The position numbers were made by a program. Shown here one piece after another: positions 3,001 to 15,000 of a stretch of 64,000 nt of DNA; positions within the stretch are counted from its first letter, which is position 1; each line of letters starts with the position of its first letter. The stretch lies in assembly GCF_016026235.1 (NCBI RefSeq), contig NZ_CP065613.1. One strand, 5' to 3'. This DNA comes from Escherichia coli. Lineage in GTDB: Bacteria > Pseudomonadota > Gammaproteobacteria > Enterobacterales > Enterobacteriaceae.

Positions 3001-6000
3001 ATAGTGAGTCTGGTCCGCAAGATGTTTCAACATTGCAGCTATTTTTACGATCGTATATTTTAAAGGTTGCGTATTTCCTTTTAGATGGATTATCTTCATC
3101 CTTCCATGCTTTTACCAGACCGCGCACAGTTACTTGAGGGCGAATGATCATTACACCATTACAGTAACTGGCTTCCCCGTTAATACCACCATGATAAAAA
3201 AGACTCCCTTCATCTTTAGTATATCTGTTGATATTCCCCCAGCCAGCAAAATTACCCCATCTGACACGTGTAAAATCAAACTTTAAAACAAGACATGTTT
3301 TGGATAAAGCCATGAATGTATCTAAATCCTTTCTCTTAATAGTAACTATATCCAGATAGTTAAAAGGAGGTGAAATATTTTTGTTAATTATCCTGATTAC
3401 ATCTTCAATATCACCCCGTTCATCGAGACGACAATATGCATTTCTTTCTGGCAAGTAATATAACCCAAGGCTGTGCACAAGTTTCTGACTTAATTCGATA
3501 GGTGCACGGCCTTCTTCAACGCCATGAAACCTACGACGATAAATTAATGCCTCTCCCCCTTTGAACACCCCATCTAAAGGTGGCTCAAGATAAATACGAT
3601 GTCCTTGACCTCCACCCCATGACTTTTGAATCTTCCAACAATACTCAACATCCATACGCATATTCTGCAATGCCCATCTATCTGCTGTAGTAACATTTTT
3701 CTCTAGAGCTAGCGCGCCATGAATTAGGACACTATTTCCAATCGCGTAGATAACCACTTCATCATTTTGAGCATTTTCTTTCAGAAATTTAATTGACCTT
3801 TCAGCCTCTATTAACCAAGCGGCATCATCATTCTGTGGCTTTTCCGAAATAGCATGAAGCTCTGTGAATTTAAATTGGCTCATGAGTAATATTCATATCC
3901 TTTTACTTTATCTATAACTGACATCACTTATAAGTTATAAGTTATAAGTTATAAGTTATAAGTTATAAGTTATAAGTTCCCCTTATGAATTAAGAAATAA
4001 CATCAAACAAATACCACCCCTCTCGTAATTTTTTCACTGAATCTGCCATAACTTCCATTACGATGGAATCTACGTACTTGCCAAGAGTAAAATGAGCGCA
4101 ATGACCCGGTATTTGTTATGTTTCTCTCGCGATATGTAGTGCCTCGCGATATGAGGGCTGTCCCACAATTACCTTGAATTTGCCCTAGCCTAGCTGGCCC
4201 CCATCCAGCATTCCAATAATAAAGCTCTGCGACGACTAGGTCCTTTAACTTAACCTGTAGACGCCCATCATGCGGGATGACTTCAAGAGAATTTTCTATG
4301 CCTGGCATCGTCGGTAAAAATAACCGGGATGGATACAAATCATGTTGTAGGTATCCTATCCGACCAAAATCGAGCATTCCCGCCAATGGCCAAGCCATAC
4401 AAGTTTTATTCACCAGTTGTTCAAAAGTTGGTGGAGTTATTAAGGTTGTTGTACTGAGTGGATCCGGAGCTTGGCTGGAAAGCATTTGTTCACGTGTCCA
4501 GAACGATTCAATATGGGATGTCAACGAGTCCGCTCCTTCCTTATCACTGCTTACAGTTTGTGACCACCGAACAATCGACAACTCTACGCACTGTTCCATT
4601 GACATTGAAATGGGCGAGCTAAATGCAATTAGCTCGTCTCCTGGGTTTGCCGCCTCTACTTGAGCAAAGAAAGTTCGCAATGAAGCCTCGATCGCCTTAC
4701 TATCACTTTTGAATTCAGTCGATACTGAGAGCCATTCGGGACGATAAGGTCGAAGAAAAGCCAAAGTTGGATGGATAGGCAACGCCAAGAGAGAATGTTG
4801 CTCGGTCAACTCCATTGGTATCCTCCAGATGTGTCTAGCCACAGCTAACGTGCGAAGATAAGCGGAAATTACGCGAAGGGCTGTTCGAGAGGAAAAATGA
4901 GGGGCAAAGCCCTCTCCCAAGGGCCGAATGAAATATCCTGCATCCCCTTGGTACGGTGCATTTGGATATGCCGTCCGGTTTTTTGTCCATTCGAAGGCCA
5001 TTTGTCGAATAAATGGACAGCGGGTAAAAGTTTCCAACTTGCTAATGGTTATATGGAAGATTCTTGGCAAATCCGTACCTTGAACACTATCAAAGTCATC
5101 GGGAATGATGAAGTCTTCTGGAGCTAGTTCCAAATCAGTATTCATGAGCAGAATCGATAACCCAAAATCTTTCATCAACAATGATGAAAGTGGTGAGGGT
5201 AGAAGAATATTCTCTGCCAACAAAGTCGTAGGAAAGTAGTTAAACTCTTTAATTGCCATCCAGAAAATACATAATACTTCGACAACCTCGGCTTCAAGTT
5301 TGCGCGAGCGCAGCAATTGAAGCAGCAATGATTCGGTTTCAGCTTTCGTCTCAGGCTCTCCCAGTCGAGCGGCAAGCTCCTGGATAGTCCACCACCGAGC
5401 AGACGTAGCAGGCCATCCAAGACGGGCAATAAGAATGCGAAGATCGTTCATTTCACTTCCTGGGCGATTGGCTCGAGCAGTTTTGACATCCAGCAAGGTG
5501 GTTCTAAGGGCAAGGTCCGAGTATCCTCAATCACACAATTAACCATCGTCTCTGTGAACTTTACAGCTTCATCAATGCGATTTTGCTTAACGTAGAAATA
5601 GACCATAACTTCCGATGGAGCTAGGCGTGACGACACTGGCTCATCAAACATGTTGTAGGTTGTTACGGCCACAAATTCATCACAGCGCTGCGGATAATTT
5701 TGGACAACCAGGTCGAGTCTTTTGCAAGTCACATCCACGTTCTCCATGTAACCAATCCATCCCCCATTACGGATCTGTGCATGAACAAGATACTTCCAAG
5801 CTGCAGTTAAGCCACTTAATCTACGTTTTGTTTGAAATGCAAACTCGGAAAGATGTAGAGCTTCCCTCATCCATTTGTTGTTTTTTGCAAATAAAATCTT
5901 ATCCAGTTCGACGAGTAAATTTCGCCCCTGCTTTTGGCTTTCCCAGTGCTGATACCAAGTACGGAGAAGTTTTGGACGCTCTTTGTAATATGGTTCCAGA

Positions 6001-12000: not shown

Positions 12001-15000
12001 AATCGATGTTGAGTATGCCATCGCTTTGTGATGACGCGATTCAAGTCGAACGACACCTTCAGTTGAAGAACTCAACGTCCATCCGATAGAGCTGTCTGGA
12101 AATACCTTGGGTGCACGAGACCAGAATTCTGTCAATATCTTGAAGCGCCAAGAAGTCCCCCAGTGAGGGTCTAGCCCAATGAAGTTAGGTGCAATCGCAC
12201 CTTCGACAAGCACACCATGCATGTCTTTGAATGATGCAAACAGGTCTACTGTTCCACGGGAAAATGGGCTGAGCGTCCCCTCTTGAGCATCTGTAAATTT
12301 CCAATAACTTTCTAATTCTTCCAGATCGTTGAGACTATCAAAAATCGTGATGAAATCCGCTAATGGAAACAAACGAGTTGGCTTTGAGGGGAGATTGATG
12401 GAATTAAACGCAGTACCCGCGAGTGTAACGACAATAACGATGTGAAGCTCATCGACGCTAGGTTCTGCACCAACTCTAGATAGAGAAAGGAAACGTCCAT
12501 CATCAAGACGGAAGAAAATCGGCGATCCACGACTCACCTTGGCGTATATGCTTTCCGCTGCGTTTGACAGGCGGTCATTAGATGTATGGTCACATGTGCA
12601 AATGAGATATATCCCAGAATTACCCAGTATAATACAACTGATAGGCAGGTCTTTGCAGGCGGTGCCGTCAACATACAGAGTCAAAGGCCCTATAAGGGTT
12701 CTTTGGAATCGCTCAGCGACAAACTCTGCAAGTTTCCTGTGCGTAGAGGGGCTAATCCCGTTCAGATTTTTGTTAGCCCAATGGTCAATAATGAGACCCG
12801 GTGCACTGCGTACTGACATTGGTATCCATACCCTATCCATCTCGACAGCAAGGAAAGGTAGCGCCATGCCTTGCATCACTGCATTTCCGAACGCATCCGG
12901 TTTCAGCGGTGCTTTGAAAGTGCCAACACGAGTATCGAACGTACACCCTGCTTTCTTTCGGCGGTTCGCTAGCTCATTGCCAAGTTGTTGAAGCAAAGAC
13001 TTGCAAGTCAACCAGAAGTCTTCAGTAGCTAGTTCAACATCAGCACATTGGGCCTCGGTGTTGACAGAGAGCATCAACTCAGGAATCGATTCGATGATCT
13101 GCGCTTGCAGCGCAATGGCAAGATCCATATGGGCTTGTGCTTCTGGAATATGAGCATAGGTAATGCGAAATGCTTCTACGAAGTCAGACATTCTCTCAAT
13201 GCAACTCCCGTAGAACATAGGGACGAAGTCTTGACCAAGCCGTACTTTGATTTGCCCCCAATCAGCCTCGGGGGAAAAATCCTCAAGCATTGGGAATTCA
13301 GGCCATGATGCGTATAATTCTTTTGTAAATACTTTAAAATCTACATAGCTATCAATCGATATACCTACCTGAGACTCAAATGGCAGCTCTAAAAGGACAC
13401 ACCAAGCAAAAATATGCTTTATGGGGCTACCTGTATTGGCTGGCCAGAGTTCGGAAGTAAATAATGCAACTGCTACGTCGAGGGTTTTGTATCGGCGAAA
13501 TAAATTCTGGGTGGCTTCCAGATGCTTACAAAAGTATGTGTCTTCACCTACCCCATTCGTAAACAATTCACGATATCTGGACATATCGTGTATCAAAGAA
13601 TCATAATCAACCTTTTGCTCTGTTAGTTTTCTTTCCCGCTTTTCACGTGACTTCCTACCCACTTCATATCCTCCCTGTATGCATACGTTGACAGTCTATA
13701 CGGTATCGAAGCATAGAAATTATTAATGCGTATCATAATGAATATCTTGAGTCACTTACTGTACCGCCCTCACAAAAGTGCATAGCCTCAAACTATCAAA
13801 CACATCCGACAAATTGTTACATTTATATTATTGCAACCATAAAACCCAATAATTTGATAAATAATAAATTTTTCTTATTTCAACTAGTCACACTTCAGAT
13901 TGGTTTACATAACTTTAGCGCAAATCACTGTTTGCCAATAATCACTTCTTCAAAAGCGGCTTTCACATTTTCATCCTCCGCTATCCGCCCTGATCAGTTA
14001 CCACAGCTAATGCAGACAATGCGAAATGCCAACATTATTTTGCCTACTCGATGCTTGTTCATGTGGCAACTTCTAACTATCTCACGACCCGCAGAAGCGG
14101 CAGAAGCTCGTTGGGATGAGATCGATTTTGAAGCTAAAGAATGGAAAATTCCTGCAGCTCGAATGAAGATGAACCGGGACCATACGGTTCCGCTAGGTTC
14201 GCGAGGCCTGAGCTTGGCGCAGCTATCGCCAGCAGAATCACCGCTGATGCAAGTGGCGCAGGCGCAGTTAAAGCATCTGTTACCCGCACATCTGATGGCT
14301 TCATTTTCGCCGTTTTTTAGTCAAGCGGGACACACTTCCTAGCCACAGCAAACGGGCGCTGAGAGAGTGGGAATGGCCGCAGAAGGTGCGGGTGGTCGCG
14401 GCCAGTCAGCCGCTCCTACCACCGGTGATCCAGGAAGGCATGTTTGACGCGGTCAGTGAAGCGCTTTACCAAGACCCTTGGCTGAACATTGATTACCGCA
14501 ATGCTCAAGATACTCGCCGTCAGGCGGAGGTGATGCCCCTTGGTTTTAGTCCTACAGGGCTCACGTCTGCAAAGCTAATGGGAAGAGTGTGGTACTCACT
14601 CTCTCCCATATAATCTTCCAAACTATGGCGAAACAGGCGTTAGCGGTTTTTTTACTTTGCTCAAAATCCAGGCATCAATCTCGGATTCTAGCCACCCCAC
14701 CGTCTTTGCTCCCAGTTTCACCCTTTGGGGAAATGTCGGATCATGACGATCAGAACTAGGGTCAAGCCAGTCGTATACCATTGAACGCCCAATGCCTAAC
14801 TTCTTGACAAGTGCAGGTACACGAAGGATTTTTACAGACTTTGGTTCCATTAAAGAGCTTCCTCTCTTGGTTTGCTTAGGATGGAAGTCAGACTATCTAC
14901 TGATGCAACTGTGCGACATACGGCTGCAGTACTTCATTTTTTACGGAGCTTAACTGATTGAATAATGGATAATTTTAGTTTTAACGATTTTATCGTTGAT

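What the first reader, a model, noticed from the sequence alone, without database searches (positions are those of the whole stretch)
4003..13662. Integrase-proximal three-gene operon of very large uncharacterised proteins: candidate undescribed defence-type system
Three minus-strand genes are packed for co-translation: a 1260-aa protein with a GTG start and strong SD, a 4-nt gap to a 1475-aa STAND-type NTPase, then an ATGA start/stop overlap into a 482-aa protein. None matches a family I can name except the NTPase core. The locus sits right after a P4-type integrase in the variable cargo slot of a CP4-57-type island and has lower GC than the core, so it is horizontally acquired. A STAND NTPase with nuclease-like domains next to an integrase is the typical architecture of anti-phage defence, but the two partner genes do not fit the known multi-gene systems I checked mentally (Zorya, Druantia, Wadjet, Gabija, Septu, Thoeris, Hachiman, BREX, CBASS). 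Function is inferred, not demonstrated.
Basis: partly seen in the sequence, partly recalled or inferred. Interest (0 to 1): 0.88.

Follow-up and report, generated by a model that had tools for sequence, protein, structure and literature searches.

The report
Split NLR-like defence gene plus unrelated neighbours
The three big genes are real and sit in a horizontally acquired island, but they are not one three-gene machine: two of them are the halves of a single NLR-like (STAND/NACHT) nuclease of the kind bacteria use against phages, and the third (and the adjacent 565-aa gene) are independent, uncharacterised island genes.

Summary
The coordinates, starts and junctions are correct. This is a rare E. 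coli ssrA-island module, complete in 10 of 5,426 complete genomes.

The trio is not a conserved unit. The 1260-aa protein (P1) occurs without the other two in 10 of 24 loci. There it lies beside Gabija, Mokosh, DRT1, SoFic, a Lamassu-like system or Tn7-like genes. The NACHT protein (P2) and the 482-aa protein (P3) occur as a pair without P1 in five unrelated genomes.

P2 and P3 always travel together and co-diverge (r=0.94). They keep the ATGA overlap and stay adjacent even at 21-25% identity. In at least 23 lineages they are fused into one ~1,950-aa protein.

The P2 NTPase is 46% identical to a seed sequence in a 2026 survey of defence STANDs. The pair is therefore a new, split member of the Avs/bNACHT kind.

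P1 (C-terminal nuclease motif) and the 565-aa P4 are orphan families and candidate independent defence genes. No function was tested.

The parts
1..687 (+). 3' part of the island integrase (CP4-57 IntA / P4-type tyrosine recombinase); the gene starts before the window
   Evidence: NCBIfam PRK09692, E 8.6e-146, profile positions 186-413. In E. coli MB57 the full intA lies directly after ssrA.
2186..3883 (-). P4, a 565-aa orphan protein. It is an independent gene, not part of the P2-P3 unit.
   Evidence: No hit in Pfam, PADLOC, NCBIfam or PHROGs. GC is 37-38% against 44-47% for P1-P3. At least 991 homologue clusters exist. It occurs alone without P1, P2 or P3 in L038 and L039. It directly follows P1, together with a 777-aa SEC-C-motif protein, in L023, L027 and L028.
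4003..5451 (-). P3, 482 aa: the detached C-terminal (sensor) module of the STAND protein, translationally coupled to P2 by an ATGA overlap
5451..8375 (-). P2 residues 501-1475: a long, mostly unannotated region taken to be the helical sensor
   Evidence: No Pfam domain. Only a PPR/TPR-like repeat signal near residues 1400-1437. It is the least conserved part of P2, with 51-68% column identity. It aligns end to end with the fusion protein P0246.
8376..9113 (-). P2 residues 255-500: NACHT/STAND NTPase, with Walker A G275PPGRGKST283 and Walker B D366GLDH370
   Evidence: Pfam NACHT E 5.8e-12. PADLOC Avs1b hit on the NTPase only, E 4.4e-11. The motifs are invariant in 25 sequences down to 26% identity. 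46% identity (E 1e-72) to STAND seed ECC9552481.1 of Lee et al. 2026.
9126..9875 (-). P2 residues 1-250: Cap4/DUF4297-like PD-(D/E)xK nuclease effector (GYxYQ, D54 D55, E59, D66, Q69-x-K71)
   Evidence: PADLOC SAVED_PDDEXK effector E 2.8e-8, endonuclease effector E 1.2e-7, LmuA E 1.6e-5. Pfam Cap4_nuclease is only E 0.12. D55, Q69 and K71 are invariant across the family.
9880..13662 (-). P1, a 1260-aa orphan protein with a GTG start. It is the first gene of the co-directional array and an independent defence-island gene.
   Evidence: for the gene. 246 homologue clusters, all 'hypothetical' with no Pfam domain. It lacks P2-P3 in 14 of 24 loci. It lies next to Gabija/TniQ, MkoC, Drt1a, an LmuB-like protein, an Avs1b-like protein and SoFic.
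10024..11514 (-). P1 residues 717-1213: a conserved C-terminal module shared with a Lactococcus plasmid protein
   Evidence: tblastn E 6e-6 and hhalign probability 96.6%, E 5.9e-10, both to the 892-aa WP_014735040.1 of pFI430.
10195..10257 (-). P1 residues 1136-1156: putative PD-(D/E)xK nuclease motif, G-D-F-D ... V-E-C-K
   Evidence: G1136, D1137, D1139, E1154 and K1156 are invariant in 17 homologues. GD[FY]D...E-x-K is retained in the Lactococcus homologue. No profile or structure confirms the fold.
13854..14342 (+). ORF holding an internal fragment of a second integrase copy. It marks the junction with the older CP4-57-like element (tandem accretion).
   Evidence: NCBIfam PRK09692 profile positions 212-294 only. 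RefSeq annotates it as 'incomplete; partial in the middle of a contig'.

Best explanation
Window 1-14.3 kb is a small integrase-borne island at ssrA. It carries at least three independent cargo modules.

**Module 1: P2+P3.** This is the only module whose working can be inferred. It is one antiviral STAND (NLR-like, Avs/bNACHT-type) protein encoded as two translationally coupled polypeptides.
- P2 supplies an N-terminal Cap4-type PD-(D/E)xK DNA nuclease, a NACHT NTPase switch and a long helical sensor region.
- P3 supplies the terminal sensor module that is covalently attached in other lineages.

Inferred mechanism, by analogy with solved Avs proteins:
1. The P2-P3 heterocomplex is auto-inhibited.
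2. A conserved phage protein binds the composite sensor. The large terminase is one candidate, given the SeAvs3 resemblance.
3. Nucleotide exchange and oligomerisation of the NTPase follow.
4. Oligomerisation brings the Cap4 nuclease domains together.
5. The nuclease degrades DNA and aborts the infection.

P3 diverges faster than P2 and is exchanged by recombination, as expected for the specificity-determining part.

**Module 2: P1.** A separate defence-island gene, probably a self-contained sensor plus PD-(D/E)xK nuclease. In one clade it has been co-inherited in front of P2-P3.

**Module 3: P4.** A further independent orphan gene.

**Shown:** gene structure, domain homology, fusion, synteny and co-divergence.
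**Inferred:** the antiphage role, the trigger, oligomerisation, and the functions of P1 and P4.
For: **P2+P3 form one unit.**
- The ATGA (-4 nt) overlap is conserved in 6 of the 7 junctions measured; the seventh overlaps by 1 nt.
- Pairwise identities of P2 and P3 correlate at r=0.94.
- Distant P3 relatives (21-34% identity) still sit directly after P2-like C-termini.
- 23 of the top 150 hits to the P3 profile are proteins of 1383-1987 aa with the P3 region at the C-terminus.
- One of them, P0246, aligns to P2 over residues 1-1463 at 45% identity and then continues into P3. It is the same intact ORF in two independent assemblies.

**STAND and nuclease identity.**
- Pfam NACHT, E 5.8e-12.
- PADLOC hits for Avs1b, Cap4-type effectors and LmuA.
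- D55/Q69/K71, Walker A and Walker B are invariant in 25 sequences.
- 46% identity to a seed of the defence-STAND survey.

**P3 as sensor.**
- The AF2 model has pLDDT 91.4.
- In Citrobacter, P1 is 98.7% and P2 99.1% identical but P3 only 80.5%, and the drop begins inside P3.

**The modules are independent.**
- P1 lacks P2-P3 in 14 of 24 loci.
- P2-P3 lacks P1 in Shewanella, Burkholderia, two Pseudomonas genomes and the fusion contigs.
- In Lonsdalea an IS truncates P1 while P2, P3 and P4 are intact.
- P4 has at least 991 clusters and occurs alone.

**Defence context.** Neighbours include Gabija, MkoC, Drt1a, SoFic, an LmuB-like protein, an Avs1b-like protein, and proteins with Abi_C, AbiJ, RES and NERD-helicase domains.
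Against: - No experiment exists. The defence role rests on homology and neighbourhood.
- The Cap4 assignment is weak at Pfam level (E 0.12).
- P2 matches no Avs1-5 or bNACHT model over its full length in PADLOC v2.
- Within one clade P1 and P2 co-diverge (r=0.98) with junctions of -8 to +12 nt. A second P1 lineage also sits in front of P2-P3 in two Pseudomonas genomes. Some functional link between P1 and P2-P3 therefore cannot be excluded.
- The nuclease fold of P1 is inferred from a motif only.
Confidence: 0.68

Rival explanations
1. Facultative three-component system. P1 is a real functional partner in this lineage: a second nuclease effector, a regulator, or a conserved 'anchor' that works with interchangeable downstream modules (P2-P3 in some genomes, P4 plus a SEC-C protein in others). 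This would resemble the shared core with type-specific partners seen in Druantia or Zorya.
For: - 10 of 24 P1 loci carry P2-P3 immediately downstream on the same strand.
- Junctions are -8 to +12 nt in 6 loci, and P2 has no obvious SD of its own in E. coli.
- P1 and P2 co-diverge at r=0.98 in that clade.
- A different P1 lineage (49-54% identity) is also followed by P2-P3 in L016 and L026. That amounts to two independent associations.
- P1 is followed at about 50 nt by P4 in four loci.
Against: - Each partner is found alone in several unrelated genomes.
- P1 is followed by a convergent gene in at least four loci. Elsewhere it lies next to complete known systems such as Gabija and a Lamassu-like set.
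- P1 is IS-truncated in Lonsdalea while P2-P3-P4 stay intact.
- The L016/L026 junction is 273 nt, which suggests insertion into a hotspot rather than coupling.
- Fused P2-P3 homologues lack P1.
Confidence: 0.2
2. Obligate three-gene defence system as proposed by the first reader: all three proteins are required and co-conserved.
For: Tight packing and co-transcription signals in the window. The same order is found in 10 loci.
Against: The co-occurrence test fails in both directions. P3 is a domain of P2, not a third component.
Confidence: 0.03
3. Not anti-phage. The STAND pair would be a regulatory or addiction module of the island (many STAND NTPases are transcription regulators). Alternatively, the nucleases would serve island maintenance or exclusion of competing mobile elements.
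For: All modules ride on integrases or Tn7-like elements. No phage data exist. No relatives were found in viral contigs or phage genomes.
Against: - No DNA-binding (HTH) output domain was detected. The effector is a Cap4-type nuclease, as in Avs3, Avs7, CBASS and Lamassu effectors.
- Neighbours are repeatedly bona fide defence systems.
- The NTPase clade is among the defence-associated seeds of Lee et al..
Confidence: 0.07

Closest known systems
Avs3 (SeAvs3, PDB 8DGC), the terminase-sensing antiviral STAND of Gao et al. 2022 as summarised in bioRxiv 10.64898/2026.04.30.721860
   Same: - An N-terminal Cap4-type nuclease, a central STAND NTPase and a very long C-terminal sensor.
- Combined length of P2+P3 is 1957 aa, against 2028 aa for SeAvs3.
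- The best PADLOC NTPase hit is Avs1b, and Avs1 is reported to be structurally close to Avs3.
   Different: - No sequence or profile similarity outside the P-loop region.
- Foldseek does not recover the match.
- Pfam classes the NTPase as NACHT.
- The protein is split into two ORFs.
- The trigger is unknown.
Bacterial NACHT proteins (bNACHT; Kibby et al., bioRxiv 10.1101/2022.07.19.500537)
   Same: A NACHT module with an N-terminal conflict-type effector and a variable C-terminal region. The C-terminus diversifies faster than the NACHT module.
   Different: - The founding example bNACHT01 is not in an operon with other genes, whereas this system is encoded by two genes.
- The Walker B signature is DGLDH rather than D[GAS]hDE.
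- No hit to any PADLOC v2 family other than the six listed.
- It is not known whether this clade was among those tested.
Avs7 (SeAvs7) and the wider STAND survey of Lee et al. 2026 (bioRxiv 10.64898/2026.01.04.697583)
   Same: - The Cap4 nuclease-NTPase-helical sensor plan.
- The authors note split proteins in their Avs7/Dsr1 sensor analysis.
- The P2 NTPase is 46% identical to their seed #25, ECC9552481.1.
   Different: - It is not SeAvs7 itself: the ATP-binding residues are K292/D358 there, against K282/D370 in the seed and K281/D366 in P2.
- The clade name, sensor cluster and any test result for seed #25 are in tables that were truncated in the copy I could read.
AVAST type I (Avs1a MBL nuclease plus Avs1b protease-STAND; PMC12799240)
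   Same: A multi-gene STAND system. Avs1b is the best PADLOC hit to the P2 NTPase.
   Different: - No MBL-fold pro-nuclease and no trypsin-like protease.
- P1 and P3 hit no Avs1 model.
- The partner here is a piece of the sensor, not an effector.
WP_014735040.1, an 892-aa hypothetical protein of Lactococcus plasmid pFI430 (closest relative of P1 outside its own family)
   Same: The C-terminal ~500 residues are homologous to P1 717-1213, including GD[FY]D...E-x-K.
   Different: The N-terminal part is unrelated and shorter. It too is uncharacterised, with no Pfam or PADLOC hit.

Membership tests
Antiviral STAND (Avs) / NLR-like defence proteins, general kind | STAND-class P-loop NTPase with intact Walker A and Walker B | tested here: met
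   Pfam NACHT E 5.8e-12 and AAA_16 E 6.5e-5. GPPGRGKST and DGLDH are invariant in 25 family members.
Antiviral STAND (Avs) / NLR-like defence proteins, general kind | Tripartite plan: N-terminal effector, central NTPase, long C-terminal sensor | tested here: met
   Cap4/PD-(D/E)xK-type effector hits on residues 5-145. About 1000 aa lie C-terminal to the NTPase, plus P3, which is fused in homologues. The Cap4 assignment is weak in Pfam (E 0.12).
Antiviral STAND (Avs) / NLR-like defence proteins, general kind | Activation by a phage protein, and phage protection that depends on the effector and NTPase | not testable with these tools
   Needs cloning, a phage panel and a trigger screen.
Named Avs types 1-5 (PADLOC v2 models) | Full-length match to the family HMM | tested here: not met
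   Only Avs1b matched, over the NTPase only (P2 255-681; 38.9 bits). No other Avs-type model matched. The same holds for the fused homologues.
Avs3-type terminase sensor | C-terminal sensor homologous to that of SeAvs3 | tested here: inconclusive
bNACHT (Kibby et al.) | NACHT module with the D[GAS]hDE Walker B signature | tested here: inconclusive
   The Pfam NACHT domain is met. The signature is D-G-L-D-H, which matches 4 of 5 positions and is invariant in the family.
Defence-associated STAND clades of Lee et al. 2026 | NTPase domain clusters with a seed or clade of that survey | tested here: met
   46% identity, E 1e-72, over the whole 248-aa NTPase of seed ECC9552481.1. The clade number and name were not recoverable.
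AVAST type I (multi-gene) | [quoted passage not shown] | tested here: not met
   No such domains in P1, P2 or P3. The definition is from PMC12799240.
   P1 lacks P2-P3 in 14 of 24 loci. P2-P3 lacks P1 in 5 of 7 contexts.
PD-(D/E)xK nuclease superfamily (P1 C-terminus) | D...(D/E)-x-K catalytic motif in the conserved alpha-beta core fold | tested here: inconclusive
   D1137/D1139...E1154-C-K1156 is invariant and retained in the Lactococcus homologue.

The most novel reading that the evidence does not exclude
P1 is the conserved anchor of an undescribed, typed defence family. In this reading a large sensor-nuclease works with interchangeable downstream modules: the split NLR P2-P3 in the 'type' seen here, and P4 plus a SEC-C-motif protein in another. 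The window's trio would then be a real, though facultative, three-component system coupling an NLR-like sensor to a second nuclease. A weaker version is that P1 and P4 are each new single-gene antiphage systems absent from current catalogues.
Probability: 0.15. Interest if true: 0.75.

Novelty: new member of a known kind. Interest (0 to 1): 0.45.

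Why it matters
The result turns an apparent 'new three-gene system' into testable pieces.

1. **A naturally split bacterial NLR.** The terminal sensor module is a separate polypeptide that is exchanged by recombination: P2 is 99% identical between E. coli and Citrobacter while P3 is only 80%. This offers a simple way to study how specificity modules are swapped in pattern-recognition receptors. P3 alleles can be swapped, or P3 can be fused to P2.

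2. **Two orphan protein families.** P1 has 246 homologue clusters and P4 at least 991. Both sit in defence islands and Tn7-like cargo, and both are invisible to PADLOC, Pfam and NCBIfam. They are reasonable candidates for uncatalogued single-gene defence systems.

3. **A misleading annotation.** NCBI and UniProt call the P3 family 'multidrug DMT transporter permease'. That name has no support and should be corrected.

Tried and rejected
- **Family libraries.** PADLOC, NCBIfam, PHROGs and Pfam found nothing for P1, P3 or P4.
- **PDB sequence searches.** Single sequences and profiles of P1, P3 and the P2 family gave only P-loop or repeat noise.
- **First AF2 run of P3.** With a shallow 33-sequence alignment the model was poor (pLDDT 54.7) and was discarded. 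It was rescued with the 87-sequence alignment built from the representative search.
- **Foldseek.** Against the PDB there was nothing significant. Against AFDB50 only uncharacterised family members came up.
- **Profile comparisons (hhalign).**
  - P1 against the P2/P3 family showed no relation.
  - P3 against the Avs1b-like STAND of L010 showed none.
- **AVAST type I.** Considered because of the Avs1b hit. Rejected because that system is an MBL nuclease plus a protease-STAND.
- **SeAvs7 identity.** Considered and rejected on the positions of the Walker residues.
- **Literature search by RefSeq accessions.** Nothing found.
- **Mapping P2 to a named Avs family in Lee et al.** Failed because Tables S4-S6 are truncated in the held copy.
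- **att repeat of the ssrA 3' end.** Searched in MB57; no exact repeat of 14 nt or more.
- **Promoter/terminator scan.** Uninformative.
- **Viral and phage searches.**
  - Viral-contig scan for P3: no relatives.
  - P1 against phage genomes: none.

Full report
**1. Observation**

The three minus-strand ORFs are exactly as described.
- P1 is 9880-13662 (1260 aa). It starts at a GTG preceded by GGGAGGA.
- P2 is 5448-9875 (1475 aa). It begins 4 nt after the P1 stop.
- P3 is 4003-5451 (482 aa). It starts at the ATG of an ATGA overlap with the P2 stop.

The region is E. coli DNA. Window 2000-14400 is 99.6-99.9% identical to only 10 of 5,426 complete E. coli genomes, always on the chromosome. In strain MB57 the RefSeq gene boundaries are the same as mine. 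The genes lie between a full intA next to ssrA and an internal fragment of a second integrase. The usual CP4-57-type genes follow.

The window starts inside that intA: positions 1-687 match PRK09692 at E 9e-146. Positions 13854-14342 carry the integrase fragment. GC is 44-47.5% over P1-P3 and 37-38% over the neighbouring 565-aa gene P4, against 49-56% in the core.

**2. What the proteins are by direct comparison**

P2 has a Pfam NACHT domain at residues 271-443 (E 5.8e-12). In PADLOC its NTPase region weakly matches Avs1b (E 4.4e-11). Its first ~145 residues match Cap4-type PD-(D/E)xK effectors: SAVED-PDDEXK at E 2.8e-8, an endonuclease effector at E 1.2e-7 and LmuA at E 1.6e-5. No Pfam domain covers the ~1000 residues after the NTPase.

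P1, P3 and P4 match nothing in PADLOC, NCBIfam, PHROGs or Pfam. P1 and P3 also match nothing among PDB sequences, whether searched as single sequences or as profiles.

**3. Is the trio conserved? No.**

I aligned P1 homologues. There are 246 clusters, all about 1260 aa, from Gamma-, Beta- and Alphaproteobacteria. I then scanned one genome per species and obtained 28 loci.

Counting the window, 24 loci are informative:
- 10 have P2-P3 immediately downstream of P1;
- 4 instead have P4 plus a 777-aa protein with a C-terminal SEC-C motif;
- 10 have neither.

Where P1 lacks P2-P3, or on its other side, its neighbours are known defence genes:
- GajA/GajB inside a TniQ-bearing Tn7-like element (L007);
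- MkoC (L013);
- Drt1a (L016);
- an LmuB-like SMC ATPase (L009);
- an Avs1b-like STAND (L010);
- SoFic (L012);
- TniQ again (L005).

Sampling from the P3 side gave the converse result. The P2-P3 pair has no P1 or P4 within 10 kb in Shewanella woodyi, Burkholderia cenocepacia, Pseudomonas simiae and Pseudomonas sp. LFM046. In Lonsdalea quercina an IS3-family element has cut P1 down to residues 800-1259, while P2, P3 and P4 are intact.

**4. P2 and P3 are one protein in two pieces**

A profile of P3 searched against 1.84 billion representative proteins found 428 relatives. Of the top 150, 23 are proteins of 1383-1987 aa with the P3-like region at the extreme C-terminus.

One of these, P0246 (1943 aa), aligns to P2 end to end at 45% identity over residues 1-1463. 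It then continues directly into the P3-like region at 1466-1934. The same intact ORF occurs in two independent assemblies, next to an Abi_C gene and without P1.

Three further observations point the same way.
- Distant split P3 relatives (21-34% identity) still lie directly downstream of P2-like C-termini.
- Among eight loci, P2 and P3 pairwise identities correlate at r=0.94.
- The stop/start overlap is -4 nt in six of the seven junctions measured and -1 nt in the seventh.

Across 25 family members down to 26% identity, the following are invariant: the nuclease residues D55, Q69 and K71, Walker A (G275PPGRGKST283) and Walker B (D366GLDH370). The enzyme parts are therefore under selection.

**5. 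What P3 is**

A first AF2 model from 33 close homologues was poor, at pLDDT 54.7. With the 87-sequence alignment that includes distant relatives, the model is confident: pLDDT 91.4 and pTM 0.92. It has a helical N-terminal half and a beta-rich C-terminal half.

SeAvs3 is 2028 aa and also begins with a Cap4 nuclease. P2+P3 total 1957 aa. [quoted passage not shown] It also states that Avs1 is structurally close to Avs3 (10.64898/2026.04.30.721860). Avs1b is the best PADLOC hit to the P2 NTPase.

This is suggestive, not proof. Foldseek does not recover the match, no profile links the sequences, and I could not see which SeAvs3 residues align. In AFDB50 the fold is shared only with uncharacterised ~480-aa proteins and the C-termini of larger 'ATP-binding' proteins.

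P3 evolves faster than P2 in every comparison. In a Citrobacter contig P1 and P2 are 98.7% and 99.1% identical to the window but P3 only 80.5%, and the drop starts about 40 residues into P3. This is an allele replacement of the kind expected for a specificity module.

**6. Relation to the literature**

Kibby et al. define bacterial NACHT proteins by the NACHT module and a D[GAS]hDE signature, and they show antiphage activity for several. P2 has the module and DGLDH.

AVAST type I is an MBL pro-nuclease plus a protease-STAND (PMC12799240), which this system is not.

Lee et al. 2026 surveyed STAND NTPases from 656 seeds and defined 589 clades, 198 of them defence-associated. Their seed #25 is ECC9552481.1 from Salmonella enterica subsp. 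salamae, with its NTPase at 251-498. It is 46% identical to P2 residues 250-494 (E 1e-72), at the same position in the protein.

The clade is therefore already catalogued. Whether it was named or tested is in tables truncated in the copy I could read. It is not SeAvs7, because the ATP-binding residue positions differ. The same paper notes split proteins in its analysis of Avs7-type sensors.

**7. P1 and P4**

P1 is highly conserved, with mean column identity of 70% and constant length. It has an invariant G1136-D-x-D1139 ... E1154-C-K1156 near the C-terminus.

Its residues 717-1213 are homologous to the C-terminal part of an 892-aa hypothetical protein on Lactococcus plasmid pFI430. The evidence is tblastn E 6e-6 and hhalign probability 96.6%, E 5.9e-10, and the GD[FY]D...E-x-K motif is retained. 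That protein is also unannotated. P1 is unrelated to P2/P3 and absent from phage genomes. P3 relatives are absent from viral contigs.

My best reading is that P1 is a self-contained defence-island protein with a large sensor region and a PD-(D/E)xK nuclease. This is inference from context and one motif.

There is still a residual signal of linkage to P2-P3.
- In the clade containing the window, P1 and P2 co-diverge at r=0.98, with junctions of -8 to +12 nt.
- A different P1 lineage (49-54% identity) also precedes P2-P3 in two Pseudomonas genomes, there with a 273-nt gap.

I therefore keep a 20% rival in which P1 is a facultative partner.

P4 belongs to a much larger family of at least 991 clusters. 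It occurs alone next to toxin-antitoxin, Fic and integrase genes and has a different GC content. It is an independent gene.

**8. Mechanism proposed**

Shown:
- P2+P3 is a split STAND/NACHT protein with a Cap4-like nuclease.
- All catalytic motifs are conserved.
- It is carried on integrative islands among defence genes.

Inferred, by analogy with SeAvs3, SeAvs7 and EcAvs4:
1. The P2-P3 complex is auto-inhibited.
2. A conserved phage protein binds the sensor formed by the P2 C-terminal region and P3.
3. Binding drives nucleotide exchange and oligomerisation.
4. Oligomerisation assembles the Cap4 domains into an active DNase and aborts infection.

The trigger is unknown. Terminase is a candidate only because of the SeAvs3 resemblance.

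**9. Verdict**

The defence interpretation is reasonable. The 'three-gene undescribed system' is not supported.

The core is a new, split member of a known kind (Avs/bNACHT), in a clade that a recent survey has already catalogued. Two truly orphan families, P1 and P4, ride alongside it and deserve testing as independent candidates.

Interest is 0.45.

Noticed in passing
window 4003-5451 (P3) compared with L043 6572-8020: Between E. coli and a Citrobacter contig, P1 and P2 are about 99% identical but P3 only 80.5%. Divergence starts about 40 residues into P3 and reaches 52% identity in the last 40 residues. This looks like recombinational replacement of the sensor module.
   Followed up: partly
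window 2186-3883 (P4); L023 13821-17991, L027, L028, L010: The 565-aa orphan P4 belongs to a family of at least 991 clusters. In four genomes it directly follows P1 and is itself followed by a 777-823-aa protein ending in a SEC-C/SWIM-like metal-binding motif. Elsewhere it stands alone next to toxin-antitoxin, Fic and integrase genes. This may be a separate uncatalogued system.
   Followed up: partly
P3 family (window 4003-5451), database names: NCBI and UniProt name many P3 homologues 'multidrug DMT transporter permease', and one is called 'DNA circulation protein'. The confident AF2 model is a helical plus beta-rich domain that is fused to STAND proteins in other lineages, and I found no support for a transporter. 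The name looks like a propagated misannotation.
   Followed up: partly
L042 2885-5509 (Lonsdalea quercina): An IS3-family transposase (rve) has truncated P1 to its last ~460 residues directly upstream of intact P2-P3-P4. This is a natural P1 'knock-out' of the array.
   Followed up: yes
L033 1-5587 (Pseudomonas simiae-type contig): Here P2-P3 is preceded on the same strand by a 1622-aa NERD/helicase protein and two unannotated genes of 524 and 508 aa. The last of these overlaps the P2 start by 8 nt. Three recombinase-like genes (390, 559 and 632 aa) follow. This is a different upstream partner set from P1.
   Followed up: no
L037 4942-7620 (Lactococcus plasmid pFI430, WP_014735040.1): An 892-aa hypothetical protein on a mobilizable lactococcal plasmid shares the C-terminal ~500-residue module and nuclease motif of P1. 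This extends the orphan module to Firmicutes.
   Followed up: partly
window 1163-2032 (+), 289-aa TTG-start ORF between intA and P4: An unannotated ORF with no NCBIfam hit. Shorter relatives lie near the integrase in the Photorhabdus locus L002. In E. coli MB57 the corresponding interval holds a 159-aa hypothetical gene and an IS1A.
   Followed up: no
L017 17429-18872; L027 10001-13802; L028 13820-15533; L013 19744-21446; L002 9960-14380: Several homologous loci carry apparently frameshifted copies, so the modules decay independently:
- P3 is split in Morganella (L017).
- P1 is split in a Burkholderiaceae MAG (L027).
- P4 is split in Comamonas (L028) and Serratia (L013).
- P2 is split in Photorhabdus (L002).
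   Followed up: no
window 13854-18847: Beyond the integrase fragment lie typical CP4-57-like genes: an inovirus Gp2-family protein, a YfjI-family protein and a GTPase-family protein. The P1-P4 module plus intA is therefore a younger element accreted in tandem at ssrA, and it has truncated the older element's integrase.
   Followed up: partly
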